Under the pieces are notes generated by a model. That model did no database searches. It worked only from the letters and a program-made list of their open reading frames with translations, and had not been told where the DNA came from. Shown piece by piece: positions 4,669 through 59,836 of a DNA stretch of 64,000 bases. The DNA is from a virus (lineage: Duplodnaviria > Heunggongvirae > Uroviricota > Caudoviricetes). Made by a program: the position numbers and the translations under genes. Each line of letters begins with the position of its first letter. Position 1 is the stretch's first letter. The DNA lies in IMG/VR virus record IMGVR_UViG_2513237141_000003, positions 1-64,000 of that record. One strand, written 5' to 3'.

Positions 4669-4704
4669 GGTCTCCTTGTGGATAATGCCGCTGCGAACGG
4701 CGGT
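4669..4704 (-). promoter_or_regulatory. hairpin-SD cassette
   Basis: gccgCTGCGAAcggc; SPFH gene. Confidence 0.6.
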
Positions 4705-10810: not shown

Positions 10811-11833
10811 TTACTTGACCTTCACTTCCCGCAATGAGCGGAAGCTGTAGGCAGCGCGCTGCTGTTCCTTGACGTTGGTGACCTTGAGCGAGAGCTTGCG
10901 GCCGCCAGCAATCAGCGCGAACGTGGCGGCGCCGATCTTGGCCATGATCTCGGTGGAGATCTCATCGCGGCGCTTCTCGCTTGAGCTGATCACCTCGCCG
11001 AGCTTCTTGCGCTCGTCGAACAGGTCGGGGAGCAGGTTATCGCTCGACAAGTCGATGATGCTGCCGTCGTCGACCGGATAGAGCTTGCGGACCAGGTCGT
11101 GGTCGCGGGTCGGGTCGATTGCAGGTACGCCGCCCGCATCCAACAGGTCCCAGAAGCCCTTGACGGTTTCGAGTATCTTCTGCTCGGCCACGGGGTGGCG
11201 CACGAGCGGGATCATCTTCAGGTCCTCGCTGAAGGTGTCGATCACCCATGCCGCGACGTAGGGGTGGATCACCTGCTTGAACGCAATCGAAGCAAGCATG
11301 GTCTCGGCCAGCGTCTGCAGCTGGTAGCCAAGGGGGACGATGGGGTTCGTCCCCTCGCGGTCGCCGCCGAGCCAGTCAGCCACGAACACCGGCTTCGCCA
11401 CGACCTTGCCCTGGATCAGGATCAGGCCCGGACGCTCCGGATCGATCGCCATGGCGTCGGGGGTCGCGCCAAAGCGCAAGGAAGGCGCGCGCAAGTAGAC
11501 CTTGCCGGCGCGGATTTCCCAGGAGGGGTTTTCTTCCTTGATCGTGGCCCACAACGAGGGCTCGAAGCGGCGACCGCGCCGCAGAACGGGGGTATCGGCC
11601 TTCTGGCCGATCTGGCCGGTTTTATCAGCCCAGACCTCGCGCGGAGACCGGTAACCGACGCCAGCAATCGAAGCGACGTCGGACGCCGTGACGTCCTTCT
11701 GGCGCAGCTTCAGCCAGCCCTCCCGGTCTCTTACGGGATCGACCTTGTGGATCTCGACGTCGCCGAGGGACAGCTCGCGGACGATGCCCATGGCGACATC
11801 GCCGATGGACCGGAACGAATCAACTTCGCTCAA
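10811..11833 (-). CDS. YqaJ-like (lambda Exo-type) recombination exonuclease
   Basis: YqaJ N-terminal motif (VTASDVASIAGVGYRSPREVWADKTG); TTG start 5 nt after the cassette SD. Confidence 0.8.
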   Translation of the reverse strand: MSEVDSFRSIGDVAMGIVRELSLGDVEIHKVDPVRDREGWLKLRQKDVTASDVASIAGVGYRSPREVWADKTGQIGQKADTPVLRRGRRFEPSLWATIKEENPSWEIRAGKVYLRAPSLRFGATPDAMAIDPERPGLILIQGKVVAKPVFVADWLGGDREGTNPIVPLGYQLQTLAETMLASIAFKQVIHPYVAAWVIDTFSEDLKMIPLVRHPVAEQKILETVKGFWDLLDAGGVPAIDPTRDHDLVRKLYPVDDGSIIDLSSDNLLPDLFDERKKLGEVISSSEKRRDEISTEIMAKIGAATFALIAGGRKLSLKVTNVKEQQRAAYSFRSLREVKVK

Positions 11834-12039: not shown

Positions 12040-12075
12040 CCTGACGGGGACATCGGGGGACGTCGGGGACATCGA
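12040..12075 (+). repeat. GGGGACRTCG iteron x3, direct
   Basis: ggggacatcgggggacgtcggggacatcg. Confidence 0.7.
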
Positions 12076-12116
12076 CTCGCGCGCATCCCTCAAAGCAAAG
12101 ATTCTATCGGGTATGA

Positions 12117-12146
12117 AAAAAGGCGGCCCTGAAGGCCGCCTATTTA
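12117..12146 (-). terminator. rho-independent terminator downstream of the cI-like gene (A/T tracts on both sides)
   Basis: aaaaaaggcggccctgaaggccgcctattt. Confidence 0.6.
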
Positions 12147-12236
12147 ATTCGATAAATCTCTTTCCAATTACTGAGATCTGTATGTGTCTTAGAGTCTACT
12201 ATCTATTGTTTGTCTAATAGCAAAAGTCGTGCCAGG

Positions 12237-12275
12237 GACGATGTCCCCGCAATGTCCACTTTCAATGTCCCCGTT
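12237..12275 (-). repeat. GGGGACAT-family iteron x3, inverted relative to the 12040 array
   Basis: cgatgtccccgcaatgtccactttcaatgtcccc. Confidence 0.7.
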
Positions 12276-12292: not shown

Positions 12293-12910
12293 CTACTCCC
12301 AGGTGACGGGGGTCGCGAAGTAGGAGCCGATGATATCGCTGACCCAGACTATGCCGACATTTCGGATCGGCTCTATGCCGGCGGGGCCCGTTAGTCGGTA
12401 GCGATGGTCCTGCGTCTCCCTTGAGACCTCCCGCAGGAGGAGGGGGCGGTGGTTGGCACGCACGACCAGCATGTCGGTCCTGCCGTTGTGCTTGAAATCA
12501 GCGTGGACGAGCTCGCGCTGGTAGCTCTTGTCGTACAGGAGGTACTGGCCGAGCGAGGCGCCGGCATCGTCGGTCAGCTCGAGCGCCACGGTGTCGGCTG
12601 AGACCTCGACGCCGGTTGCAATCTTGCCTTTCGGTTCATCGAACATCTCGATCCGCAACCCCTTGCGGACGGCGCCGACTAGCGGCACCACGCCGGCCGT
12701 GAACCCGATCTCGGCGGGCGAGCAGCCGAAAGCCTTGGCAATGCGCTGCGCCCACGCCAGATCGATCGGACGCTGCCCCGTTTCCAGTTTTTGAATCTGT
12801 TGTTGCGAGGTGCCGGCCTTCCCGGCGACCGTTTCGCGTGACCAGCCGCGCTCATTTCGCATCTCAATGAGCCTCTCCGGCGGCGCTCGGTCCTTTCTAC
12901 GGTCCAGCAT
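12293..12910 (-). CDS. CI-like repressor (XRE HTH + C-terminal domain)
   Basis: HTH (LIEMRNERGWSRETVAGKAGTSQQQIQKLETGQR); divergent from the cro-like gene; operator repeats in the shared intergenic region. Confidence 0.7.
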   Translation of the reverse strand: MLDRRKDRAPPERLIEMRNERGWSRETVAGKAGTSQQQIQKLETGQRPIDLAWAQRIAKAFGCSPAEIGFTAGVVPLVGAVRKGLRIEMFDEPKGKIATGVEVSADTVALELTDDAGASLGQYLLYDKSYQRELVHADFKHNGRTDMLVVRANHRPLLLREVSRETQDHRYRLTGPAGIEPIRNVGIVWVSDIIGSYFATPVTWE

Positions 12911-12939
12911 TAATCCTCTCTGCTTTCCAATGCTGAAAA

Positions 12940-13025
12940 AAGTACCAGATTGGTGCAAGTCAGTCATCGAAACCGGATTGGTGAAAATGCCCGCTTGACA
13001 CTTCACCGACTTGGTGCAATTTTGC
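12940..13025. promoter_or_regulatory. cI/cro divergent control region with three TTGGTG(C/A)AA operator half-sites incl. TTCACC-gactt-GGTGCAA; TTGACA -35 for cro
   Basis: gattggtgcaag, gattggtgaaaa, cttgacacttcaccgacttggtgcaatttt. Confidence 0.45.
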
Positions 13026-13061
13026 GTGTCGCTGGCCGCACCCATCACGCAAGACGAATCC

Positions 13062-13313
13062 ATGTTCCTTCAAGACTATCTCTTGAAGACCTACCCCGGT
13101 CTTCGCTCTGGGCAGACCAGCTGGAACCAAGTCGAGATCGATTTCGCCGAAAAGGTTGGGACCAGTCGGCAGAACATCAACCGTTATCGCAAGTTTCAGC
13201 GCCACCCGCGACCGCCAATGGTCGCGCGAATCAGGAAGCTCACCAACGGACTGGTGGCCGCAGACGATCATCTGCCGCCTGAGCAACATCCGAGCAAGTC
13301 GAGATCGATCTGA
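13062..13313 (+). CDS. Cro-like HTH regulator
   Basis: 83 aa; HTH (FAEKVGTSRQNINRYRKF); divergent from the cI-like gene. Confidence 0.5.
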   Translation: MFLQDYLLKTYPGLRSGQTSWNQVEIDFAEKVGTSRQNINRYRKFQRHPRPPMVARIRKLTNGLVAADDHLPPEQHPSKSRSI

Positions 13314-13791: not shown

Positions 13792-14232
13792 ATGGCTTTA
13801 ATGACGCCCACCATACAATCCGTACATCTGAAAATCTCGGAATTTTCGTCTCCGGCCTTCGCCTCCAAGGCGGACGAAGCAAAAGCGCTCGTGCGTCGGT
13901 GCGCGGAGCCGTGCCCGGCCGGTGACTCCGTCAAGGAAGCCATCAACCGCGCGACAGACCGGCTCGGCTTCTCGACTTCGCGAACACAGGACTTTTGGTA
14001 TGGGGAGGCCAGACGAATTGACGACAACGAAATCGACAGGCTGCGCTACGTGGCGGACGCGACTGAGATGTTGGTCGCTCAGGAAGCGCTCAAGACGCTT
14101 CGTAAGCGCATGGCGGTATCGGATTCTCCGCTGTCTCGTGAGGTCGTGCACCGCCTTGATGCTTGCTTCAGCCTTCTCCGCGGCGTTCCTTTCGGAATGC
14201 ATGTCGGACGGCAGCGGGGCTGCCGATCGTGA
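13792..14232 (+). CDS. hypothetical protein
   Basis: AGAGGG SD; AT-rich promoter-like region upstream. Confidence 0.45.
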   Translation: MALMTPTIQSVHLKISEFSSPAFASKADEAKALVRRCAEPCPAGDSVKEAINRATDRLGFSTSRTQDFWYGEARRIDDNEIDRLRYVADATEMLVAQEALKTLRKRMAVSDSPLSREVVHRLDACFSLLRGVPFGMHVGRQRGCRS

Positions 14233-14768
14233 ATAGGGTGCAGCACATATGGAGCGACGACAACATCGCCATGGTCCGCAATCTTGCGGACAAGGGTGAC
14301 AGTTCGGCCGAGATCGCCGCCAAGTTGAGCGCGGCCACAGCCCGGCGCGTCACGAAGAATGCGGTGGTCGGCATCTGCACGCGGAGGGGCATCCAGCTCA
14401 AGAACAAGAGTTTTGCGCCCGCAAAGCCGAAGCGGGAGCCGCAGCCAAGGTCTTATCTCGCGCCAAAGAATACTACCCCCGCACCCAAGGGGTTCGTGAG
14501 GGTGCCTACTCCGGTGATGTCGCCGGAGGCGACGCTGCCCATCACGAAATTTACTCCGGCTAAACCGTCGGAGACTAGCGTTTCGATTTACGAGCTTAAC
14601 TCTGATCTATGCCACTGGCCGTTGGGAGATTTCGCAGATCGCCCTCCGTACCGGTACTGCGGCGCGAGGGTCTTCGCAGGACCCTGGTGCCTCTGCCACT
14701 TCAGGCAGGCGACTGAAAACAAGGAGACCAGCCATGCCCAAGGGACATTCAAGGCCGAAGCAGCGTAG
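14229..14768 (+). CDS. gcrA: GcrA-like cell-cycle transcriptional regulator
   Basis: N-terminal W.DD...L..L...G.SA.EIAA.L....R.AV.GK..R.GL; C-terminal C.WP.GD.......CG......YC..H motif. Confidence 0.75.
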   Translation: MNRVQHIWSDDNIAMVRNLADKGDSSAEIAAKLSAATARRVTKNAVVGICTRRGIQLKNKSFAPAKPKREPQPRSYLAPKNTTPAPKGFVRVPTPVMSPEATLPITKFTPAKPSETSVSIYELNSDLCHWPLGDFADRPPYRYCGARVFAGPWCLCHFRQATENKETSHAQGTFKAEAA

Positions 14769-16157: not shown

Positions 16158-16343
16158 ATGCCGAAGGGGATCGAGGCGCGCGAGGCGCGCAGGTCGTTCG
16201 TACGTGTTCCGGTAGCGTCGCGCGTTTCTGAGGATCTTCGGGCGGAAGCAAAGCGCCGCGGTGTCGAATACGACGATCTCGCCGCCGAGATCATCGACAC
16301 CGTTGTCAATCATGGGCTCTACGCCGCTGTGTTGGATCACTGA
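16158..16343 (+). CDS. hypothetical small protein
   Basis: 61 aa; ATGA coupling to the primase gene. Confidence 0.45.
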   Translation: MPKGIEAREARRSFVRVPVASRVSEDLRAEAKRRGVEYDDLAAEIIDTVVNHGLYAAVLDH

Positions 16344-18700
16344 TGCCGGACGATTTGGGCCGCTACATCGAGCCGGTTGCCGAGGCTCTCTTTGGGAAAC
16401 CGACGTCGCGCAAGTCTGACGAGCTGCGCTACGGAAAGAACGGTTCACTCAAGATCAACCTGAAAACCGGCTTCTGGGATGACTGGGAGGCCGGGCAGAG
16501 CGGCGGCGTGCTCGCACTGATCGAGCGCGAGAAGGGGTTAAAGAACGGCGAGGCCATCGACTGGATGCGCTCGACGCTTGGCCTGGACATCGAGGACCGG
16601 CGCCCGCAGCAGCGACAGTCGGCGCCCTCGCGCGCTCCCGATCGCAACCCGCCGCCGCAGGACCCGCCAAGGGACGAACCAAGAGAGCAGCCGAAGGCGC
16701 GCCCCCAGCTCGTCAAGGCCTACGACTATACGAACGAGGCCGGCGATCTCGTCTTTCAGGTCTGCCGCATGGAGCCCAAGAACTTCCTGCAGCGCAGGAA
16801 GCCGCGGCCCGACGATCCCAAGGAGGACATCAAGGGCGGCTGGGTGTGGAAGCGCGACGGCATCACCCAGGTGCCGTACCGCCTGCCGGAGCTGGTCGAG
16901 GCGCTCGCCGATGAGCGGATGATCTTTCTTCCAGAGGGGGAGAAGGATGTCGACAACGTCTGCGCCCTCGGCGTCCCGGCGTCGACCAATGCCGGAGGTG
17001 CCGGCAAATGGCCTGACGAACTCACGCCATACTTCAAGGATGCTGACGTCGTCGTCCTGGCCGACAACGATCCGCAGACGAGAAACTCCAAGACCGGCGA
17101 GCTGCAATGGCATCCTGACGGGCGCCCGAAGTTGCCCGGGCAGGATCATGCCAAGCTGGTCGCCTCCAAGCTCGCAGGTGTTGCCAAGCGGGTTCGCATC
17201 CTCTCGCTGCCGAACCTTCCGGTTAAGGGCGACGCCACCGACTGGATCGAGGCCGGCGGCACCTCGGCTGAACTCTATCGGCTGGCGGAATCGCAGGCGA
17301 TGACGCTTGCGGAATATCAGGTCTATCTCGACCTCACATTCAAACCGAAGGCGTTCATCTCCAAATTCGGCGCGGTGATGTGGGGAGACCCGCGCGGGAA
17401 TCGCAAGCGGTACGAGTACATCATCAAGGGCATGATCCCGCGTCGCGAGACCGTACTGATCTACGGCGCGAGCCAGTCGGGCAAGAGCTTCTTCACCCAT
17501 GACATGGCGATGGCTGTTGCGCGCGGTGGAGACTATCTCGGGCGCAAGGTTAGGCGCGGCATCATCGTCTATTGCGCAGCAGAGGCCGGCGACGGCTTCG
17601 TCGACACTCGTTTCGCAGGCTACGCCACCGGCAAGGGCATCTCCGAAAACGAGGTGCTGCCGTTCTTCTGTCTGACCAAGAAGTTTGATCTGTTCGGCAA
17701 CGAGCAGCAGGCGATCGACCTGATCGCTGAGATCAAGGCGTTGGTTGCCATGTGGAACCAGCGCTTCCCGGACGATCAGCTCGAGCTCGAAGCGGTCGTC
17801 ATCGATACCTTCAACAAGACCACGCCTGGCATGGACGAGATCAACGGCAAGGAAGTTGGTCTCGTGATGTCGCGCCTCGACCGCATCCGCGAGGAGTGCA
17901 ACTGCGGGCTCTGGCTGGTGCACCACATGAACGCCTCCGGCACGGGGCCCCGCGGTCACACCTCGCTGTTCGCCGCATTCGAGACCGCCTTCCGGGTCGG
18001 GAAATACGACTACACGCTGAAGGACGCCCCGCCAAAGATCCGCGACGGGGACAGGATGAGGGAGCGCCGTTTCATCCAGAACACCAAGCAGCGCGAGGGC
18101 GAGGACGGCGAGGTCACCGACTTCTACCTGCGCGGCGTCATATCGAGCTACGACGAGGACAATCAGCCGGTCCCAGGGGCGGTGGTCGAATGGATCGACA
18201 CGCCGGCTTCGCGCGCCGCTGACAAGGCCGTCGAGGAGATCGGCATCGCGCTCACCGACCAGCGCGCCAACGTCTATCGGGCCATCCAGCGGGCCCTGGA
18301 GGAGAACGGCGTGCCGACGCCCCCAAGCCTCGGCCTGCCCAAGTCGATCCAACGCGTGGTCAACAGCCGGTTCATCAGGCCCGCATACCTTAAATATTTC
18401 GCAGCGGAGGACGACTCGGAGGACGCGATCAAGAAGGCGCTGTCACGCTCCAACGATTTCCTCGTCCGCAACGGCATCATTGCGCGCAACAACCCATGGA
18501 TCTGGATCACAGGTAAGCGGATCAAGGGCGAGCAGCGGCGGCCAGAGCCGCCGCCGGAGGAGCCGGCGCCGGGAGATGTCGTCGAGGCGCCAGACGAAAG
18601 CGGCGACGAGATGGATTGGTCGGAGATCGGTGACGATGTCGGCGAGATGCCGCCGCCATCTCCGGCCGTGGAGCCGGAATTTGCGGGAGCGATGGAATGA
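16343..18700 (+). CDS. DNA primase/helicase (TOPRIM + RecA-like AAA_25/D5-type NTPase)
   Basis: TOPRIM EGEKD...DxD region; Walker A GASQSGKS, Walker B VVIDTF; acidic C-terminal tail. Confidence 0.85.
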   Translation: MPDDLGRYIEPVAEALFGKPTSRKSDELRYGKNGSLKINLKTGFWDDWEAGQSGGVLALIEREKGLKNGEAIDWMRSTLGLDIEDRRPQQRQSAPSRAPDRNPPPQDPPRDEPREQPKARPQLVKAYDYTNEAGDLVFQVCRMEPKNFLQRRKPRPDDPKEDIKGGWVWKRDGITQVPYRLPELVEALADERMIFLPEGEKDVDNVCALGVPASTNAGGAGKWPDELTPYFKDADVVVLADNDPQTRNSKTGELQWHPDGRPKLPGQDHAKLVASKLAGVAKRVRILSLPNLPVKGDATDWIEAGGTSAELYRLAESQAMTLAEYQVYLDLTFKPKAFISKFGAVMWGDPRGNRKRYEYIIKGMIPRRETVLIYGASQSGKSFFTHDMAMAVARGGDYLGRKVRRGIIVYCAAEAGDGFVDTRFAGYATGKGISENEVLPFFCLTKKFDLFGNEQQAIDLIAEIKALVAMWNQRFPDDQLELEAVVIDTFNKTTPGMDEINGKEVGLVMSRLDRIREECNCGLWLVHHMNASGTGPRGHTSLFAAFETAFRVGKYDYTLKDAPPKIRDGDRMRERRFIQNTKQREGEDGEVTDFYLRGVISSYDEDNQPVPGAVVEWIDTPASRAADKAVEEIGIALTDQRANVYRAIQRALEENGVPTPPSLGLPKSIQRVVNSRFIRPAYLKYFAAEDDSEDAIKKALSRSNDFLVRNGIIARNNPWIWITGKRIKGEQRRPEPPPEEPAPGDVVEAPDESGDEMDWSEIGDDVGEMPPPSPAVEPEFAGAME

Positions 18701-47271: not shown

Positions 47272-47577
47272 TCAGGCGGCGACGGGGATCAAGCCGAGGG
47301 TGATCGCCCGGAGGATGGCGCGCTCGTTCTCGCGGTTCTGGAAGTTGATGTAGGTCCGGGCGGAGCGGCGGTCGGCGAAGCGCTCGCCGTTGACCCAGAA
47401 GCCGACGGCTGATCCGTCAGTGCGCTCGATCATCCAGATGCCATCGTAGTTGATCGAGGCGGTGACGGCGTTGCGGATCGCGTCGGCTTGGTAAGCCCAG
47501 AGCGTCTGACGAACCTGCGTCTCGTTCTTGGCGGCGACGTTGCGGAGCGAATAGCGGGCATCGGTGTGGCGTTTCAT
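47272..47577 (-). CDS. hypothetical protein
   Basis: cassette upstream. Confidence 0.5.
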   Translation of the reverse strand: MKRHTDARYSLRNVAAKNETQVRQTLWAYQADAIRNAVTASINYDGIWMIERTDGSAVGFWVNGERFADRRSARTYINFQNRENERAILRAITLGLIPVAA

Positions 47578-47580
47578 GGT

Positions 47581-47631
47581 CGGTCTCCTTGGTTGCAGGC
47601 ATGAAAAAGGCCCCGCTGCGAACGGGGCCTA
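47581..47631 (-). promoter_or_regulatory. hairpin-SD cassette
   Basis: aggccccgCTGCGAAcggggcct. Confidence 0.6.
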
Positions 47632-47654: not shown

Positions 47655-47843
47655 TCAGGCGCCGGTTTTGATCTCGGTGCCGTTGGCGAAGATCGAGACG
47701 ATCTTATCGCCGGAATGAACGAGAAACACGCCGTTATACCGGCGTGAGTGTTTGGCGGCATCCTCTTTGGCCTGCCGGATCGAGCGGCGCGGATGGGTTT
47801 CGAGTTCGCCATCGCCAGCGAGATGGCTGATTTTGATTTGCAT
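47655..47843 (-). CDS. hypothetical protein (first gene of the leftward block)
   Basis: cassette upstream; adjacent to the 1-kb control region. Confidence 0.5.
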   Translation of the reverse strand: MQIKISHLAGDGELETHPRRSIRQAKEDAAKHSRRYNGVFLVHSGDKIVSIFANGTEIKTGA

Positions 47844-47847
47844 GATC

Positions 47848-47906
47848 GGTCTCCTTGGTTTGAGGCGTAGAACGGTGCGGCGAAACATGCGCCGCACTGC
47901 GCTACG
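47848..47906 (-). promoter_or_regulatory. SD 10-mer + long nested palindrome
   Basis: ggcgtag..gtgcggcgaaacatgcgccgcac..ctacgcc. Confidence 0.45.
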
Positions 47907-48360: not shown

Positions 48361-48439
48361 TATATAGAGAGTGCCCTATTTTGGCCTAAGCCTTTGAAAT
48401 TGCTAGGTTTTACCCCAAAAACAGGCCCAAAACCGCCCA

Positions 48440-48735
48440 AAGGGGCCCCAAATTGGCCCCACACCCAAGGAATGGGCCCGGCCGGGCCCCGATAGAGCAG
48501 GGGACCCGCTACAGGGGCGGAAAGACCGGCGGCGCTAGGCAAGGCAGGGCCCGGGAAACGGCCCTATTGGGCCCGCGCTAGGGCCCCAGAGCTACCCCAA
48601 AATGGGCCCAAAAACGGGCCCCAAAAGATGAGCTGGCGAGGGGCCCCTGCGCCCAGGTACGCAGGGGTAAACAGGGAACGGCCCGAAACGGGGCCCATAG
48701 GCGGGAAGGCTGATTCGGGGCCCCAAAAGGGCCCG
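48440..48735. repeat. GGGCCC-rich cluster (about 12 copies, often GGGCCCCAAAA units) in the divergent control region
   Basis: e.g. tgggcccaaaaacgggccccaaaag; ttcggggccccaaaagggcccgcaa. Confidence 0.7.
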
Positions 48736-48744
48736 CAACCCCAT

Positions 48745-48985
48745 AGGGGACATTTGGCCCCGTAAGGGGACAACGAGACAGAGCGCGGAACGCCAAGGGG
48801 ACATTCGGGGGACATCGGCCTTTCGGCACCATGTCCCCTTCAACGGCGCCATTAGAGAAATCAATCACTTAAGCCCGTTATCGGAATCCCGACATCGGTC
48901 CCCGGCACCAGCCGTCCCGATGTCCACGTTCCCAGTCGAATGTCCCCATGTCCCCAAAGTGTCCCCTTTCGATGTCCCTTTAATG
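48745..48985. repeat. GGGGACAT iteron field: about 4 forward copies then about 6 inverted copies
   Basis: ggggacattt, ggggacaacg, ggggacattcgggggacatcg | atgtcccc x3, atgtccac, gtgtcccc, atgtccc. Confidence 0.7.
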
Positions 48986-49585
48986 TTCTGGCTGAGGACT
49001 CGCGACGCAGCTAACATCCTGATCCGCATGGCGGATATCGCGCAGACATTGGCGGCGGACGTTCTGGAGGCATCGGGGCTGTCGTGCCTGTATGCCGAGC
49101 CAGGCGCAGGAAGTGTGCGGATCACCATCGGCGGCATCGCTGCGCGCAAGAAACCCGGCACAAGGCTCTGGCTTCGCTCGCAAAAGCAGGCCGAACGGGT
49201 ATTGGCCGAGTTGATGGCCAGTCACCGCGAGGCGCGCAAGAACGCTCGTGGCGGCCTCTTCGTGGCCGCCGAGCCCGAGATGGTCGAGAAGATGCTGCGG
49301 GTGTGCGCCGGCCGCCTCGGGTATGCGATCTCGCCCGATGAGCACCTGGACGTCACGCTGTCCTCGCTTCAGAAGCGGATCGGCAAAGCCATCGACGCCC
49401 TGCAGTCCACCGGTCAGATGAAGAAGCTCAATCGAGAATATGCCGCGCTCCGAAAGGGGACATTGCTCGGGGACATCAAGGGGACATCGGGGACATCGTT
49501 ACCATCGTACTCCGAATGGCTGGTCGATCGGCTCAAGAAGCAGCTTCCGGCCTACACCAATCTGGCGAACTTCACGATTTTGTGA
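48983..49585 (+). CDS. hypothetical protein; its gene is embedded in GGGGACAT iteron arrays
   Basis: start uncertain (48920/48983/49028); four iterons lie inside its 3' coding region. Confidence 0.45.
   Translation: MFWLRTRDAANILIRMADIAQTLAADVLEASGLSCLYAEPGAGSVRITIGGIAARKKPGTRLWLRSQKQAERVLAELMASHREARKNARGGLFVAAEPEMVEKMLRVCAGRLGYAISPDEHLDVTLSSLQKRIGKAIDALQSTGQMKKLNREYAALRKGTLLGDIKGTSGTSLPSYSEWLVDRLKKQLPAYTNLANFTIL
49447..49497 (+). repeat. GGGGACAT x4 direct, inside the coding sequence
   Basis: ggggacattgctcggggacatcaaggggacatcggggacatcg. Confidence 0.7.
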
Positions 49586-49842
49586 TCAAATCTGAAACAC
49601 AAGCAATATCATCAAGTTGATATCGATTTTCGTCGTCGGTCCAAATTCATTGCGGAAAATCAGCATTGATCTCGGGCGGAAAATCGGCTCTACACGCGCC
49701 TGCGCCACGTCGACAAGTGTGTCTTGAAGGGTGAGGCGAGCTCAAGCGAGCCTCAACCCAACTCTCAGACATCTGACAAGACTGGGTGGAGAAGGTCTCT
49801 TAGAGATTCTCCATAGCGGCGCCTTCCTCACAAGCCAAGCGA

Positions 49843-49895
49843 TGTCCCCGACCCGGCAATGTCCCGGGGGCCGGAAGAGGACATGTCCCCCTTGG
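49843..49895 (-). repeat. GGGGACAT-family x3 inverted (incl. GGACATGTCC palindrome)
   Basis: gatgtccccgacccggcaatgtcccggg...gaggacatgtccccc. Confidence 0.6.
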
Positions 49896-50843: not shown

Positions 50844-51121
50844 CCGACATCGCCCCCGAGTTCGAAGTCGTGAACGAGGACGTCCCGGTCTCGAAGGTCG
50901 TGACCATGCCGCACCAGTACATGGCGATCTACGCCAACCCGGTGTCGAACTGGTGGGCGGCGGCTGATACGCGCGAGAAAGCGCGCGCTGCTTTCGATCG
51001 CTTCATGGCCCATGGCGCGCAGAAGCCACTCTACCGGGTCTATACGTTCTGGGATGCGGAGAAGCTTGCCAAGATCGCTGCGTTTCTGGAGATGCCGTCA
51101 CCAAGCGGGATGATCCACTGA
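50840..51121 (+). CDS. hypothetical protein
   Basis: GTGA overlap. Confidence 0.45.
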   Translation: MTDIAPEFEVVNEDVPVSKVVTMPHQYMAIYANPVSNWWAAADTREKARAAFDRFMAHGAQKPLYRVYTFWDAEKLAKIAAFLEMPSPSGMIH

Positions 51122-51531
51122 TGGGCTCCTGGCCGCTTGACGAGCTGTCCCGGCTACGGATTGAAGTCGAGGCCTTACGCGATCGTGTCGCGCAGCTTGA
51201 GGGCATCATCGGCATCGGCGTCGACGAGCTTGGCCTGCTCAAGCGGGTGATCCCTGACATCACCGTCATGGAGAGCAAGATCCTCAACATGGTTCGCGCC
51301 CGCGGCGCGGTCCCGCGCGGGGTGCTCTATGACGCGCTGTATGCCGCGCGCCCTGACTGTGATCAGCCCGGTGGCAAGGGCATCGAGGTGGCCATGATGC
51401 GGGTCCGGCGCAAGATTGCGCCGCTCGGGCTCACCATCACGACCTACTGCGGCAGCGGCTACGTCATGGCCGAGGCCGACCGCAAGCGCCTTACCTCGAT
51501 GATGCAGGTTCCCCAAGAGGTCGCGGCATGA
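51121..51531 (+). CDS. winged-helix (OmpR/PhoB-type trans_reg_C-like) DNA-binding regulator with N-terminal coiled coil
   Basis: C-terminal ..ESKILNMVRARGAVPRGVLYDALY....VAMMRVRRKI pattern. Confidence 0.6.
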   Translation: MGSWPLDELSRLRIEVEALRDRVAQLEGIIGIGVDELGLLKRVIPDITVMESKILNMVRARGAVPRGVLYDALYAARPDCDQPGGKGIEVAMMRVRRKIAPLGLTITTYCGSGYVMAEADRKRLTSMMQVPQEVAA

Positions 51532-56606: not shown

Positions 56607-56682
56607 TCTGGACGTAGCGCAGTTGGTAGCGTACCGCACTTGGAATGCGGGGGTCGTCGGTTCGAGCCCGACCGTCCAGACC
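56607..56682 (+). tRNA. tRNA-Pro (TGG)
   Basis: cloverleaf; acceptor ctggacg/cgtccag; anticodon loop cuUGGaa; CCA encoded. Confidence 0.8.
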
Positions 56683-56684
56683 AA

Positions 56685-56772
56685 TCCGTGAGTGCCGGAG
56701 TGGTCAATCGGGGCGGGCTGTAAACCCGCCGGCTTTCGGGCCTTCGCTAGTTCAAATCTAGCCTCACGGACC
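56685..56772 (+). tRNA. tRNA-Tyr (GTA), long variable arm
   Basis: acceptor ccgtgag/ctcacgg; loop cuGUAaa; CCA. Confidence 0.8.
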
Positions 56773-56775
56773 AAT

Positions 56776-56851
56776 TACCCGCTTGGTCCAGTGGTCTAAG
56801 ACGTCGGACTTTGACTCCGAAGACAGTCGTTCAAATCGACTAGCGGGTGCC
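56776..56851 (+). tRNA. tRNA-Gln (TTG)
   Basis: acceptor acccgct/agcgggt; loop cuUUGac; CCA. Confidence 0.75.
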
Positions 56852-56894
56852 AAGAGATTGACCAGCCGCAGGTTGATCGGCTATCAGGCTGGGC

Positions 56895-57401
56895 ATGACC
56901 CTTGCCAAGGCTTCCCTCGTTGTAGCAGTCCTCATCGCCGCCGCGTCCAGCGCAGCCGGCGAGGGGCAGCCTATTACGGAGGCCATGAAGCCGGTCATGG
57001 CCGCAGCCCGCATCTTTGCGCTCGAAAACCACCTCCACGGCGACATCGCTGTTGCCGATGAGGACGAGGGCCACATCGGCCGCAGTTTCGAGGTCAACCA
57101 CGCCCCGGGCGAAGCCTGCACCTTCACGATGCGGCGCCGCGGCGGGCCAGTGATCGAGACGATCAGCTTCGATCGTCTGTCCGGTGAATATCACGCCTGG
57201 CCGCAGCACGGTTATGCGCGGCTCGCCATTTCAGGCCAGCCTGGCGCTCAGTGCGAGGTCAGCGGCGGCGTCAAGCGCTGCTCGCCCAACCTGGATATGC
57301 TGCTGATGGTCGAAGGCTCGCCGAGCGAGCTCGACCTGGCGCGGCGCGCGCTGGATTACATCTTCGAGAACGTGTGCCGTCCGGCACAACTGCCATTCTG
57401 A
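56895..57401 (+). CDS. secreted hypothetical protein inside the tRNA island
   Basis: signal peptide; 168 aa. Confidence 0.5.
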   Translation: MTLAKASLVVAVLIAAASSAAGEGQPITEAMKPVMAAARIFALENHLHGDIAVADEDEGHIGRSFEVNHAPGEACTFTMRRRGGPVIETISFDRLSGEYHAWPQHGYARLAISGQPGAQCEVSGGVKRCSPNLDMLLMVEGSPSELDLARRALDYIFENVCRPAQLPF

Positions 57402-57493
57402 AAGCTCAAGGTCACACCATGTCGTCGTTTAGTCACTCATCACATATCGCCGGAAGGGTGACGCGGTAACACGACCGCCGCCCTTCCTGTTTG

Positions 57494-57579
57494 CGGAGGG
57501 TGGCGCCCATGGTGGGCAAACAGTCTCGAAAACTGCGCCCCGGTCTCCCGGTGATGGTTCGAATCCTTCACCCTCCGCC
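57494..57579 (+). tRNA. tRNA-Ser (CGA), long variable arm
   Basis: acceptor ggagggt/accctcc, G73, CCA; loop cuCGAaa; coordinates +/-2. Confidence 0.7.
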
Positions 57580-57580
57580 A

Positions 57581-57656
57581 CGCCGAGGTAGCTCAGCTGG
57601 TAGAGCGGCGCGTTGAAAGCGCGCGCGTCGGAGGTTCGAACCCTTCCCTCGGCACC
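57581..57656 (+). tRNA. tRNA-Phe (GAA)
   Basis: acceptor gccgagg/cctcggc; loop uuGAAag; CCA. Confidence 0.8.
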
Positions 57657-57670
57657 AACTCTTCCCAAGG

Positions 57671-57746
57671 TGCCGGCTTAGTTCAATTGGTTAGAACGCT
57701 CGATTGTGGCTCGGGAAATCGCGGTTCGAGCCCGCGGGCTGGTACC
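57671..57746 (+). tRNA. tRNA-His (GTG), alpha-proteobacterial type (no G-1, A73)
   Basis: D/anticodon/T arms canonical; loop uuGUGgc; acceptor has three G-U pairs. Confidence 0.6.
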
Positions 57747-57785
57747 AACTTTCGCGGACTCGAACGGTGTGCTAAGGCGCACGCC

Positions 57786-57977
57786 ATGACCTTCGAGGAT
57801 GAGCTCACCGCACTGCTCATGAAGTATCTCGGTCCAGACGCGCGCCCGCGAGACTGGTACCGGATCGGCGGGGAACTGGAAACCGCGTTGCACTGGGTGG
57901 ACTCGCGGTCGTCGGCTAGGTTTACTCCAGAGGAGTTTGACGCCGATCTTGAAGCCGACGAGGCGGAGAGGGAGTGA
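57786..57977 (+). CDS. hypothetical acidic protein (64 aa) between tRNAs
   Basis: ORF MTFEDELTALL... Confidence 0.4.
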   Translation: MTFEDELTALLMKYLGPDARPRDWYRIGGELETALHWVDSRSSARFTPEEFDADLEADEAERE

Positions 57978-57982
57978 ATTTC

Positions 57983-58056
57983 GACGATGTGGCCGAGTGA
58001 TGAGGCAGACGGCTGCAACCCGTCTCACGTTGGTTCGATTCCATCCATCGTCTCCA
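57983..58056 (+). tRNA. tRNA-Cys (GCA)
   Basis: acceptor gacgatg/catcgtc; loop cuGCAac; CCA. Confidence 0.75.
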
Positions 58057-58254
58057 ATTCCGAGACCTCGGTAACTCCATCCCGCCAGATGATCACTGGC
58101 GCGGCCTGGCTCGAGGTGCGGATGCTCGCAAGGTAGACGGCGTCGCGGCTTGCGGCCTGCGGCGCCCGTGTCCATGGCTTGTCCCGTCCCGCCTTGCGTT
58201 TAGGTCTCTGCGTCGTCCGCTAGCGGCGCTCCGGCTAACGGGAAAAAGTTTCGT

Positions 58255-58330
58255 TGGGTTGTAGCTCAGTCGGTAGAGCAGGCGGCTGTTAACCGCCGCG
58301 TCGCTGGTTCGAATCCAGCCTTCCCAGCCA
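58255..58330 (+). tRNA. tRNA-Asn (GTT) with two U-U mismatches in the acceptor stem
   Basis: D, anticodon (cuGUUaa) and T arms canonical; CCA present; pairs 5-68 and 6-67 mismatched. Confidence 0.55.
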
Positions 58331-58331
58331 A

Positions 58332-58406
58332 GCCGGGGTAGCTCAGCGGTAGAGCAGCGACTTTGTAAGTCGACGGTCGTCGGTTCAAATCCCTCTCTCG
58401 GCACCA
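58332..58406 (+). tRNA. tRNA-Thr (TGT)-like, non-canonical T-stem (possible pseudo-tRNA)
   Basis: acceptor gccgggg/tctcggc (2 G-U); loop uuUGUaa; T-stem has two central mismatches. Confidence 0.45.
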
Positions 58407-58444
58407 ATTTCCTTCCCCATCTTCCCCAACAGACGAGTCCCCAC

Positions 58445-59749
58445 ATGCCTGATATCGGCGAGCGCAAGCTCGCGACGATCCGTCGCGTCTCGAAGATCGA
58501 CCCCATCGAGGGTGCTGACCGCATCGTCAAGGCCACCATCGACGGCTGGGAGCTGGTCACCCAGAAGACCAACTACCAGGTCGGCGATCTCTGCCTCTAC
58601 TTCGAGATCGACAGTTTCTTGCCGGTGCGGCCAGAGTTCGAGTTCCTGCGCGACAAGTGCTTCAAGTCGGTTGCAGGCCTTGGTGACGGCTTCCGCATCA
58701 AGACCATGAAGATGAAGGGCGTGGTGTCGCAGGGGCTTAGCCTGCCGCTGTCGGACTTCTTCGATAAGGAAGATGACGGCCGCTACTTCTACATCGCCCC
58801 GGAGACCAAATGGGAGCGTGAACGCCTCGAACGTCGTGAATGGGTCGAGCCGACCCGGGTCTTCCTTGAGGAGGGCATGGACGTCACCGACTACCTCGGC
58901 GTCAAGAAGTATGAAAAGCCGGCCGCCGGTAATGGCGGCGGGTCGAAGCTTGGCCCGACGCATGCCCGCGGCGGCTTCCCCGACTTCCTGCAAAAGACCG
59001 ATCAGGAGCGCATCCAGAACTGTCTGAGCGGTGTGCTGAAATGGATCTATTACGGAGCACCCGTCGTCACCGAGGTGTTTAATCCCGTAGTCATCGAAAA
59101 CCTGAACCTGGGTCGGGTCGAGAACAGCGCGGAGTCTTACTACTTCAAGTCCGGCGACCAGTGGTTCCACAAGGCTGCGGTCCGCAACGATGATGAGACC
59201 ATCGCCAAGCGCCAGCAGTTCGAAGTGACGCTGAAGCTCGATGGATCGTCGATGACGGTCTATCACAACGACTACAGCTACGGCGTCTGCTCGCGAAACT
59301 TCGACCTCAAGCGGGACGAGGCGTCGCTATTCTGGCAGCAGGCCGCCGATGGGATCATCGCGGCGTTGGTTGTCGTCGGCAAGAACGTGGCGCTCCAAGG
59401 CGAGCTGATGGGCCCCGGCATTCAGGGTAACCGCGAAGGATTCGCCACTAACCAGTTCTTCGCCTTCGACGTCTATGACATCGATCAGTCGAGGTACATG
59501 ACGCCGGATGAGCGGTTCGGCTTCCTGCGCAATCTGCAGGGCATTGGCTGCGGCATCCAGCACGCGCCGGCACTCGCTCATGACTACGTGCTCACCGAGA
59601 CGACAACGGTGAATGATCTGCTCAAGATCGCGGATCGGGCCAGCTTCAACAACCCGATCGCTGAAGGTGTCGTGTTCAAGTCCCTCGTCGCCGGCGGACC
59701 GACCTTCAAGGTGATCAACAACAAGTTCCTGTTGGCTGAGAAGGACTGA
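58445..59749 (+). CDS. ATP-dependent RNA ligase (Rnl-like nucleotidyltransferase) with N-terminal OB-like domain
   Basis: KxDG motif I (VTLKLDGSS); covalent nucleotidyltransferase layout; embedded in the tRNA island. Confidence 0.75.
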   Translation: MPDIGERKLATIRRVSKIDPIEGADRIVKATIDGWELVTQKTNYQVGDLCLYFEIDSFLPVRPEFEFLRDKCFKSVAGLGDGFRIKTMKMKGVVSQGLSLPLSDFFDKEDDGRYFYIAPETKWERERLERREWVEPTRVFLEEGMDVTDYLGVKKYEKPAAGNGGGSKLGPTHARGGFPDFLQKTDQERIQNCLSGVLKWIYYGAPVVTEVFNPVVIENLNLGRVENSAESYYFKSGDQWFHKAAVRNDDETIAKRQQFEVTLKLDGSSMTVYHNDYSYGVCSRNFDLKRDEASLFWQQAADGIIAALVVVGKNVALQGELMGPGIQGNREGFATNQFFAFDVYDIDQSRYMTPDERFGFLRNLQGIGCGIQHAPALAHDYVLTETTTVNDLLKIADRASFNNPIAEGVVFKSLVAGGPTFKVINNKFLLAEKD

Positions 59750-59761
59750 ATACACTTTCAT

Positions 59762-59836
59762 TGCAGGGTGGAGCAGCGGTAGCTCGGCGCGCTCATAACG
59801 CGTAGGTCGCCGGTTCGATCCCGGCCTCTGCAACCA
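59762..59836 (+). tRNA. tRNA-Met/Ile2 (CAT), elongator-type
   Basis: acceptor tgcaggg/ctctgca, with 1-72 paired; loop cuCAUaa; CCA. Confidence 0.75.

What the first reader, a model, noticed from the sequence alone, without database searches (positions are those of the whole stretch)
12040..12275. Inverted GGGGACAT iteron triplets flanking an AT-rich core and terminator just downstream of cI
Three direct GGGGACRTCG repeats with 10-bp periodicity lie at 12040-12075. Three inverted ATGTCCMC copies lie at 12237-12275. Between them is a ~160-bp segment containing a strong terminator hairpin and an unusually AT-rich stretch, 12150-12236, at about 30% GC in a 64% GC genome. Symmetric iteron arrays around an AT-rich core resemble phage or plasmid origins, lambda-type attP arm sites, or centromere/partition sites. 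The locus sits between the cI terminator and the presumed pL/OL.
Basis: seen in the sequence. Interest (0 to 1): 0.6.

Follow-up and report, generated by a model that had tools for sequence, protein, structure and literature searches.

The report
Phage replication-origin iterons beside repressor gene
The repeats are real and are most likely the landing sites where this Bradyrhizobium prophage's own primase-helicase starts DNA replication; this is a known type of origin, here placed away from the helicase gene and present in three copies.

Summary
Three direct GGGGACRT copies (12046-12074) face three inverted copies (12241-12272) across a GC-rich hairpin and a 95-bp stretch of 34% GC. The 8-mer occurs 20 times in the window against 4.2 expected, and 17 copies lie in three convergent cassettes (12.0-12.3, 48.7-49.0 and 49.4-49.9 kb).

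Comparison with other phages identifies the likely binder as the primase-helicase at 16343-18700 (RSF1010 RepA-like core). Viral contigs found by the motif alone often carry a homologue of this protein with the arrays directly 3' of its gene. Among loci chosen by helicase homology alone, 72% have a short repeat array in that 3' flank, against 7% of control windows. The repeat sequence tracks the helicase C-terminal domain, not its core. In one near-identical phage pair, a switch from GGGACA to GGGTACA coincides with divergence confined to residues 641-720.

The architecture (opposed short iterons around an AT-rich centre) matches origins of self-loading initiator-helicases such as SaPI Rep and P4 alpha. 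Here the helicase belongs to a different superfamily, the arrays lie away from its gene, and there are three cassettes, two of them bracketing an orphan gene. The attP, centromere and cI-operator readings are not supported. No binding or origin activity has been tested.

The parts
12046..12074 (+). Left iteron array of cassette A: three direct copies of GGGGACRTCG starting at 12046, 12056 and 12065
12121..12141 (.). GC-rich palindrome AGGCGGCC-CTGA-AGGCCGCCT. On the minus strand it is followed by a T-run, giving an intrinsic terminator for the cI-like transcript. It occupies the position of the central palindrome seen in related origins.
   Evidence: -18 kcal/mol, z = -3.7; central palindromes in relatives
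12142..12236 (.). AT-rich spacer, 34% GC in a 62% GC window; candidate DNA-unwinding element
12241..12272 (-). Right iteron array of cassette A: three inverted copies at 12241, 12252 (GTGGACAT, one mismatch) and 12265
16343..18700 (+). Primase-helicase of 785 aa with an AAA_25 / RSF1010 RepA-like core. Its C-terminal domain (about residues 626-730) is the inferred iteron-recognition domain.
   Evidence: covariation
48746..48979 (.). Cassette B: four direct copies (48746, 48766, 48797, 48808) facing six inverted copies (48831, 48920, 48940, 48948, 48959, 48972). The innermost pair flanks 'cggcctttcggcacc', which resembles the CCTTTAGG-type centre of related origins.
   Evidence: relatives
49456..49496 (+). 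Cassette C: four direct copies inside the 3' end of the orphan gene, read as the codons G-D-I-K-G-T-S-G-T-S
49842..49890 (-). Cassette D: three inverted copies at 49842, 49859 and 49883, facing cassette C across 343 bp
49028..49585 (+). Orphan gene bracketed by cassettes B and C/D. It encodes 185 aa with no Pfam, PHROG or NCBIfam hit. It is a possible accessory or regulatory partner.
   Evidence: the homologue in L012 co-occurs with a GGGGACA array
12293..13063 (-). Context: cI-like HTH_3 repressor gene. Its transcript would run through the right array and the AT-rich spacer to the terminator.

Best explanation
The two opposed GGGGACAT triplets are iterons recognised by the prophage's own primase-helicase (16343-18700), most likely through its C-terminal domain. 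With the hairpin and the AT-rich 95 bp between them, they form a replication-origin cassette. It is of the kind used by self-loading initiator-helicases such as SaPI Rep and P4 alpha.

Inferred mechanism: helicase hexamers dock on each array in opposite orientation, melt the AT-rich centre, load themselves and prime synthesis. Replication then proceeds without a separate initiator or loader.

The phage carries three such cassettes (A at 12.0-12.3 kb, B at 48.7-49.0 kb, C/D at 49.4-49.9 kb). Which one fires, and whether the others act as auxiliary sites (as crr does in P4) or as regulatory sites, is open.

Shown here: the repeat anatomy, the clustering, the family-wide link between this helicase and 3'-flanking arrays, and the covariation of iteron sequence with the C-terminal domain. 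Inferred: binding, melting and origin activity.
For: 1. Anatomy. Three plus three convergent 8-mers at a 9-13 bp period flank a 34% GC stretch. The motif occurs 20 times against 4.2 expected, and 17 copies lie in three cassettes.

2. Motif-only search. Of 32 viral loci retrieved purely by a triple GGGGACAT pattern, six (L006/L024, L009/L011/L027, L017) encode a homologue of the window primase-helicase, with the arrays directly 3' of that gene. L031 shares the L009-type array context but is too short to include the helicase gene.

3. Helicase-only search. In loci chosen by helicase homology alone, 57 of 79 have a 6-mer repeated at least 6 times in the 430 bp 3' of the gene. Only 6.7% of 480 control windows do. 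The repeat differs between lineages: CGTTGCA, (C/G)GGGACA, GTACCA, GGGTAC, GTGACG and others.

4. Covariation. GGGACA-class loci are more similar to the window's C-terminal domain (median 26.2 against 16.2 bits, p = 1.4e-4) but not to its helicase core (p = 0.89).

5. Natural specificity swap. The L239 and L235 helicases are 90-97% identical except at residues 641-720, where identity is 62-68%. Both of their iteron clusters differ in step, GGGACA against GGGTACA. L239 and L238 share the iteron and are 95-100% identical in that region.

6. Shared proteins. The helicase is the only protein family shared by all ten GGGACA-iteron loci and the window.

7. Shared architecture. Relatives show 4-6 direct repeats, then a central palindrome or AT-rich element, then 2-4 inverted repeats.

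8. Match to a published description. SaPI origins are described as short iterons downstream of rep, with an AT-rich centre, at least two iterons on each side pointing in opposite directions, and recognition by the Rep C-terminal winged helix (PMC9371898).
Against: In the window the arrays are not 3' of the helicase gene, whose stop overlaps the next ORF. They lie 4 kb upstream of it and 30 kb downstream.

With three cassettes, the origin cannot be assigned to the flagged one.

The fold of the C-terminal domain could not be established. The single-sequence AF2 model had pLDDT 42, and there was no PDB sequence match.

Only about five independent lineages use the GGGACA core. Three helicases with GGGACA iterons (L059, L006, L009, i.e. 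two of the five lineages) have C-terminal domains with no detectable similarity to the window's.

An orphan protein also co-occurs with the motif (window; L012) and is bracketed by cassettes, so a second binder is possible.

The same 8-mer arrays sit beside non-homologous primases in L022 and L020/L030. They also occur as background minisatellites in 120 bacterial loci with no helicase homologue.

GC skew gives no origin signal at 12 kb.

The left array abuts a TTGACA hexamer and the right array lies in the cI 3' UTR, so a transcriptional role is not excluded.
Confidence: 0.62

Rival explanations
1. The arrays are operator or regulatory sites for another phage DNA-binding protein, most plausibly the orphan product of 49028-49585. 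That protein would autoregulate through cassettes B to D and control leftward early transcription (pL) or cI read-through at cassette A.
For: The orphan gene is bracketed by cassettes upstream, inside its 3' end and downstream. A 31%-identical homologue sits 2.2 kb from a six-copy GGGGACA array in L012, a locus found by the motif alone. The P0002 homologue keeps G-T-S / G-D-M / G-T-S codons where the in-gene iterons lie. The left array of cassette A ends 11 bp from a TTGACA hexamer on the transcribed strand.
Against: No orphan homologue is detectable in the ten other GGGACA-iteron loci. Iteron identity tracks the helicase C-terminal domain. The orphan has no recognisable DNA-binding domain, and its model is of low confidence. 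The consensus scan did not call a promoter at this site.
Confidence: 0.15
2. The arrays are packaging-recognition (pac or cos) sites bound by a terminase small subunit or an accessory protein.
For: In L017 the arrays lie between the helicase gene and three small ORFs followed by TerL and portal. In L012 the orphan homologue sits in the order HNH, orphan, unknown ORF, TerL, portal.
Against: No terminase gene was found among the window proteins scanned. The cassette A neighbourhood is an immunity and recombination region. The arrays co-vary with the helicase, not with terminase. In small phages the replication and packaging modules are simply adjacent.
Confidence: 0.06
3. The locus is a partition (centromere) site or a lambda-type attP with integrase arm sites.
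For: There are repeated asymmetric sites in opposed arrays around an AT-rich core. A tyrosine integrase is present in the element.
Against: No ParA-type Walker A motif is encoded in the 64 kb. The integrase is 11 kb away, and the locus is intact inside an element on a 380-kb contig. No tRNA fragment or tRNA gene lies at the locus.
Confidence: 0.03
4. The repeats are a chance repeat or minisatellite with no function.
For: Triple arrays of this 8-mer occur in many unrelated genomes, including giant-virus and cyanobacterial contigs.
Against: No shuffle out of 100 reaches the observed count. The same convergent architecture appears three times. The motif is linked to one protein family across independent lineages.
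Confidence: 0.02

Closest known systems
SaPI (Staphylococcus aureus pathogenicity island) replication origins with Rep / PriRep self-loading helicases
   Same: Both have short iterons in two sets pointing in opposite directions around an AT-rich centre. In SaPIs the iterons are recognised by the C-terminal domain of an initiator-helicase that may be fused to a primase. The origin lies directly 3' of the helicase ORF in SaPIs and in most relatives found here, and the iteron sequence is lineage-specific (PMC9371898).
   Different: The helicase core here is RecA-fold and RSF1010 RepA-like (AAA_25; PDB 1g8y match at E = 1e-11), and it shows no match to the P4 alpha / SaPI Rep type. That SaPI Rep is an AAA+/SF3-like enzyme is my own reading of PMC9371898. 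The iterons are 8 bp rather than 5-6 bp. In this phage the arrays are detached from the helicase gene and present as three cassettes. The winged-helix fold of the C-terminal domain is unproven.
Satellite phage P4: alpha protein (primase, SF3 helicase and C-terminal winged helix, PDB 1ka8) with ori and crr
   Same: One polypeptide combines primase, helicase and origin recognition. P4 uses octameric iterons (TGTTCACC, from my own knowledge of Ziegelin et al. 1993) in two distant loci, ori and crr, in direct and inverted orientation. This parallels the dispersed cassettes here. The domain order of P4 alpha is confirmed in PMC2777425.
   Different: The helicase superfamily differs, and there is no sequence similarity. 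L022, which carries a P4-type primase, shows no homology to the window protein. Whether two loci are jointly required here, as in P4, is unknown.
RSF1010 / IncQ replication (RepA helicase, RepB' primase, RepC iteron-binding initiator)
   Same: The helicase core is the closest solved relative. Both systems have an iteron-containing origin with an AT-rich region.
   Different: In IncQ plasmids a separate protein, RepC, binds the iterons (my own knowledge). Here no separate initiator is evident, and iteron specificity tracks the helicase's own C-terminal domain.

Membership tests
Iteron origin of a self-loading initiator-helicase (SaPI Rep / P4 alpha type) | At least two short iterons on each side, pointing in opposite directions | tested here: met
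   Three direct copies (12046-12074) face three inverted copies (12241-12272). The same convergent layout is seen in cassettes B and C/D.
Iteron origin of a self-loading initiator-helicase (SaPI Rep / P4 alpha type) | AT-rich region between the two iteron sets | tested here: met
   12142-12236 is 34% GC against 62% for the window.
Iteron origin of a self-loading initiator-helicase (SaPI Rep / P4 alpha type) | Origin located immediately downstream of the helicase / rep ORF | tested here: not met
   In the window, the helicase gene (16343-18700) overlaps the next ORF and no array follows it. The feature is met in relatives: 57 of 79 loci have an array in the 3' flank.
Iteron origin of a self-loading initiator-helicase (SaPI Rep / P4 alpha type) | Iteron specificity resides in the helicase's C-terminal domain | tested here: met
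   This was tested by covariation only. GGGACA-class loci score higher on C-terminal-domain similarity (p = 1.4e-4) but not on core similarity. The L239/L235 iteron swap coincides with divergence confined to residues 641-720.
Iteron origin of a self-loading initiator-helicase (SaPI Rep / P4 alpha type) | The C-terminal domain is a winged helix | tested here: inconclusive
   The single-sequence AF2 model has pLDDT 42. It shows helices followed by a terminal beta-hairpin but is unreliable. The profile search finds no PDB match.
Iteron origin of a self-loading initiator-helicase (SaPI Rep / P4 alpha type) | Helicase of the SF3 / AAA+ type, as in P4 alpha and SaPI Rep | tested here: not met
   Pfam gives AAA_25, and the best solved relative is RSF1010 RepA (1g8y), followed by Twinkle.
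Iteron origin of a self-loading initiator-helicase (SaPI Rep / P4 alpha type) | Sequence-specific binding, melting and origin activity | not testable with these tools
   This needs EMSA or footprinting and a replication assay.
Lambda-type attP with integrase arm-type sites | Adjacent to int, and split into attL/attR in the integrated state | tested here: not met
   The integrase is at 1-1173, 11 kb away. The locus is intact inside an element on a 380-kb contig. No tRNA-derived core is present.
Partition site (parS / centromere) | Cognate ParA/ParB-type genes in the element | tested here: not met
   No KGGxxK[ST] Walker A motif occurs in any frame of the window. This covers the 64 kb only.
DnaA-dependent plasmid-type iteron origin (P1 oriR, RK2 oriV) | DnaA boxes flanking the iterons | tested here: not met
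   The only TTATCCACA-like sites (at most 1 mismatch) are at 4677 and 21391.
cI operators (OL/OR) | The same sites also occur in the cI-cro divergent promoter region | tested here: not met
   No GGGGACRT occurs between 12273 and 48745, so the 13064-13300 region has none.

The most novel reading that the evidence does not exclude
The helicase-binding iterons may have been dispersed and co-opted. On this reading, a temperate phage carries three origin-like cassettes that also wire replication into its regulatory circuits. One cassette sits in the cI 3' UTR and abuts the leftward early promoter, so that binding of the initiator-helicase gates immunity or early transcription. Two cassettes bracket, and one invades, an orphan gene. 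Its product would be a new kind of origin-associated regulator, functionally comparable to P4 Cnr. This would also be an SF4 RepA-like primase-helicase that recognises its own origin without a separate initiator.
Probability: 0.2. Interest if true: 0.6.

Novelty: new variant of a known kind. Interest (0 to 1): 0.42.

Why it matters
It gives a concrete, testable origin assignment for an otherwise unannotated Bradyrhizobium prophage that has almost no sequenced relatives.

More generally, the comparisons suggest a rule for a widespread phage family of RepA-like primase-helicases. The origin is a short-iteron array next to the helicase gene, and the iteron code is set by the helicase's last ~100 residues. 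That rule would allow origins to be predicted in hundreds of uncultured phages. It would also extend the self-loading initiator-helicase principle, known from P4 and SaPIs, to a different helicase superfamily.

The dispersed, triplicated layout raises the question of whether origin sites double as regulatory sites.

Tried and rejected
- DNA similarity searches against 50,697 phage records found nothing for either locus.
- The cI-like protein and the orphan protein have essentially no relatives. The only other contig with DNA (L034) is identical over the intergenic region compared.
- The DNA of the one orphan homologue (P0002, JGI 3300047160) could not be fetched.
- Scans for the orphan in viral and genome collections found nothing.
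- Exact GGGGACAT triplets are absent from the 80 closest helicase loci. This looked like a refutation until the 3' flanks were examined for any repeat.
- The 120 bacterial loci with the triplet hold no helicase or orphan homologue, so they are background minisatellites.
- Rfam gave only tRNAs.
- Structure prediction failed to reach usable confidence for the orphan (pLDDT 62) and for the helicase C-terminal domain (pLDDT 42). No fold search was therefore run.
- The last homologue search, using the C-terminal domain, returned nothing.
- A full-text search for the motif string returned only primer noise.
- I considered a DnaA-box variant. The motif resembles high-GC DnaA boxes and Caulobacter W-boxes from memory, but there are no canonical boxes nearby, and the lineage-specific iteron switching argues for a phage-encoded reader.
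- I considered Mu-like transposon ends and rejected them. The cassettes are internal, and the gene order is lambdoid with an integrase.
- GC skew was uninformative.

Full report
**Setting.** The window is 62% GC and belongs to a prophage-like element of Bradyrhizobium sp. Tv2a-2; two of its proteins are 100% identical to proteins on a 380-kb contig of that strain. A tyrosine integrase lies at the left edge (1-1173). A leftward operon follows, with NinB, SSB, a phrog_3657 protein and a RecE/YqaJ-type exonuclease (10811-11833). Next come a leftward HTH_3 cI-like gene (12293-13063), a rightward cro-like gene, GcrA, and a 785-aa primase-helicase (16343-18700; AAA_25, phrog_239). The flagged locus fills the 459-bp gap between the cI stop and the exonuclease start.

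**Check of the observation.** The sequence shows GGGGACATCG, GGGGACGTCG and GGGGACATCG at 12046, 12056 and 12065. It shows ATGTCCCC, ATGTCCAC and ATGTCCCC at 12241, 12252 and 12265. Between the arrays lies a 9-bp GC-rich hairpin (12121-12141). On the minus strand it is followed by a T-run, so it terminates the cI transcript (-18 kcal/mol, z = -3.7). A 95-bp stretch of 34% GC follows. GGGGACRT occurs 20 times against 4.2 expected, and no shuffle out of 100 reaches that count. The 6-mer core is not enriched overall (36 copies against about 43 expected), but it is extremely clustered. One has four direct plus six inverted copies at 48746-48979. The other has four direct copies at 49456-49496 facing three inverted copies at 49842-49890. 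Together these two bracket, and partly lie inside, an orphan gene (49028-49585).

**Finding the reader of the motif.** The phage has no close relatives: DNA searches against phage records, and protein searches with cI and the orphan, gave almost nothing. I therefore scanned viral contigs for three tandem GGGGACAT copies. Most of the 32 hits are unrelated repeats, including some in giant-virus bins. An all-against-all protein comparison changed the picture. Six loci from three lineages (L006/L024, L009/L011/L027, L017) encode a homologue of the window's primase-helicase, with the arrays immediately 3' of that gene; L031 shares the L009-type array context but is too short to include the helicase gene. 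One further locus, L012, encodes a homologue of the orphan.

**The reciprocal, motif-blind test.** I fetched the 80 best loci by helicase homology alone. None has the exact triplet, which at first looked like a refutation. However, 57 of 79 loci have some 6-mer repeated at least six times within 430 bp of the helicase stop codon. Only 6.7% of 480 control windows from the same loci do. The repeated word is lineage-specific: CGTTGCA, (C/G)GGGACA, GTACCA, GGGTAC, GTGACG and others. The layout recurs: 4-6 direct copies at a 9-12 bp period, a central palindrome or AT-rich element, then 2-4 inverted copies. This is the same layout as cassettes A and B in the window. The centre of cassette B (GGGGACAT-cggcctttcggcacc-ATGTCCCC) even resembles the CCTTTAGG-type centres of L009, L017 and L110.

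**Which part of the helicase reads the iterons.** Loci with at least four GGGACA copies in the 3' flank are more similar to the window's C-terminal domain (residues 626-730) than other loci are (median 26.2 against 16.2 bits, Mann-Whitney p = 1.4e-4). They are not more similar to its helicase core (p = 0.89). The helicase is the only protein family common to all ten GGGACA-iteron loci and the window. The clearest case is a natural swap among the window's nearest relatives. The L239 and L235 helicases are 90-97% identical along most of their length but only 62-68% identical at residues 641-720. Both of their iteron clusters differ in step: the one 3' of the gene and a second one 2-3 kb further on both read GGGACA in L239 and GGGTACA in L235. 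L239 and L238 share the iteron and are 95-100% identical in that same segment. There are caveats. Only about five independent lineages use the GGGACA core, and three helicases from two of those lineages (L059, L006, L009) have C-terminal domains with no detectable similarity to the window's. The fold of the domain remains unproven, because the AF2 model had pLDDT 42 and there was no PDB sequence hit.

**Mechanism proposed.** The anatomy matches the published description of SaPI origins almost point for point. Those origins have short iterons downstream of rep and an AT-rich centre. At least two iterons on each side point in opposite directions, and they are recognised by the winged helix in the Rep C-terminal domain. 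Rep acts as a self-loading helicase (PMC9371898). P4 alpha is the other precedent: a primase, a helicase and a C-terminal winged helix in one chain (PMC2777425). From my own knowledge, P4 alpha binds octamer iterons in two distant loci, ori and crr. I infer that the window's primase-helicase docks on the opposed arrays, melts the AT-rich spacer and loads itself. The steps shown here are the repeats, the family-wide association and the covariation. Binding, melting and origin firing are inferred.

**Differences from the known systems.** The helicase core is RSF1010 RepA-like (1g8y, E = 1e-11) and so belongs to a different superfamily from P4 alpha. In the IncQ system a separate protein, RepC, reads the iterons (my own knowledge). 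In this phage the arrays are not beside the helicase gene, and there are three cassettes. I cannot say whether cassette A or cassette B is the firing origin. Cassette B has the family-typical centre, whereas cassette A has the clearest AT-rich spacer.

**Rival readings.** A regulatory role for the orphan protein is the main alternative. It rests on the bracketing of the orphan gene by cassettes and on the L012 co-occurrence. Against it, the orphan is absent from the other iteron-bearing loci. A packaging role is suggested only by module adjacency in L012 and L017. The attP reading fails because the integrase is distant and the locus is intact inside the element. The centromere reading fails because no ParA-type Walker A motif is encoded in the window. 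A DnaA-dependent plasmid-type origin fails because there are no DnaA boxes nearby. The cI-operator reading fails because the motif is absent from the cI-cro region.

**Verdict.** This is a known kind of element in a new guise, and it is of moderate interest.

Noticed in passing
window 48400-48740: A second repeat family, GGGCCC(C)AAA and related GGCCC words, fills the non-coding stretch just upstream of cassette B (9 matches with up to 1 mismatch against 3.7 expected, six of them here). Its function is unknown. It may be part of the same origin or regulatory region.
   Followed up: partly
window 49456-49496; protein P0002: Four iterons lie inside the orphan ORF and are read as G-D-I-K-G-T-S-G-T-S. 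The 41%-identical homologue P0002 keeps G-T-S / G-D-M / G-T-S at the same place despite a 57-residue insertion upstream. This hints at selection at the DNA level. The DNA of that contig could not be fetched.
   Followed up: partly
L012 6205-6981 and 9183-9240: The only other orphan homologue with DNA available sits in the order HNH endonuclease, orphan, unknown ORF, TerL, portal. A six-copy one-directional GGGGACA array lies 2.2 kb away, upstream of a serine resolvase gene. No helicase homologue is present in the 13.6 kb held.
   Followed up: partly
L022 6751-6978; L020 7370-7427; L030 5103-5160: The same GGGGACAT arrays lie directly 3' of a P4-type primase that is not homologous to the window protein (L022). 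They also lie directly upstream of a ResIII helicase plus Toprim primase pair (L020/L030). This could be convergence, a shared small DNA-binding domain, or a host factor.
   Followed up: no
L239 12280-12365 and 15503-15571; L235 12283-12439 and 14844-14943: The nearest relatives also have two iteron clusters of opposite orientation, here 2-3 kb apart with genes between them. Dispersed arrays are therefore a trait of this clade, not an oddity of the window.
   Followed up: partly
L238 12270-12620: In one relative an extra ORF is inserted between the helicase stop codon and the iteron array. This shows that the arrays can be separated from the gene by insertions.
   Followed up: no
window 56608-59836: ARAGORN calls a cluster of ten tRNA genes (Pro, Tyr, Gln, Ser, Phe, His, Cys, Asn, Thr, Met), nine of which Rfam confirms. 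The cluster is interleaved with an RNA ligase gene (58445-59749, phrog_968). This is unusual cargo for a temperate alpha-proteobacterial phage.
   Followed up: no
window 51121-51531: A small stand-alone protein shows a weak OmpR/PhoB-type Trans_reg_C match (E = 0.006), and its counterpart on the P0002 contig carries a precomputed Trans_reg_C (PF00486) hit. Proteins of this type bind direct repeats at a 10-11 bp period, so it is an untested alternative iteron binder.
   Followed up: partly
window 14163-14768: The early rightward operon carries a phage-encoded homologue of the GcrA cell-cycle regulator (PF07750, E = 5e-17).
   Followed up: no
window 47572-47600 and 47838-47866: A 29-nt direct repeat (86% identical) overlaps the start of the minus-strand ORF 47272-47577, and a second copy lies 266 bp away.
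   Followed up: no
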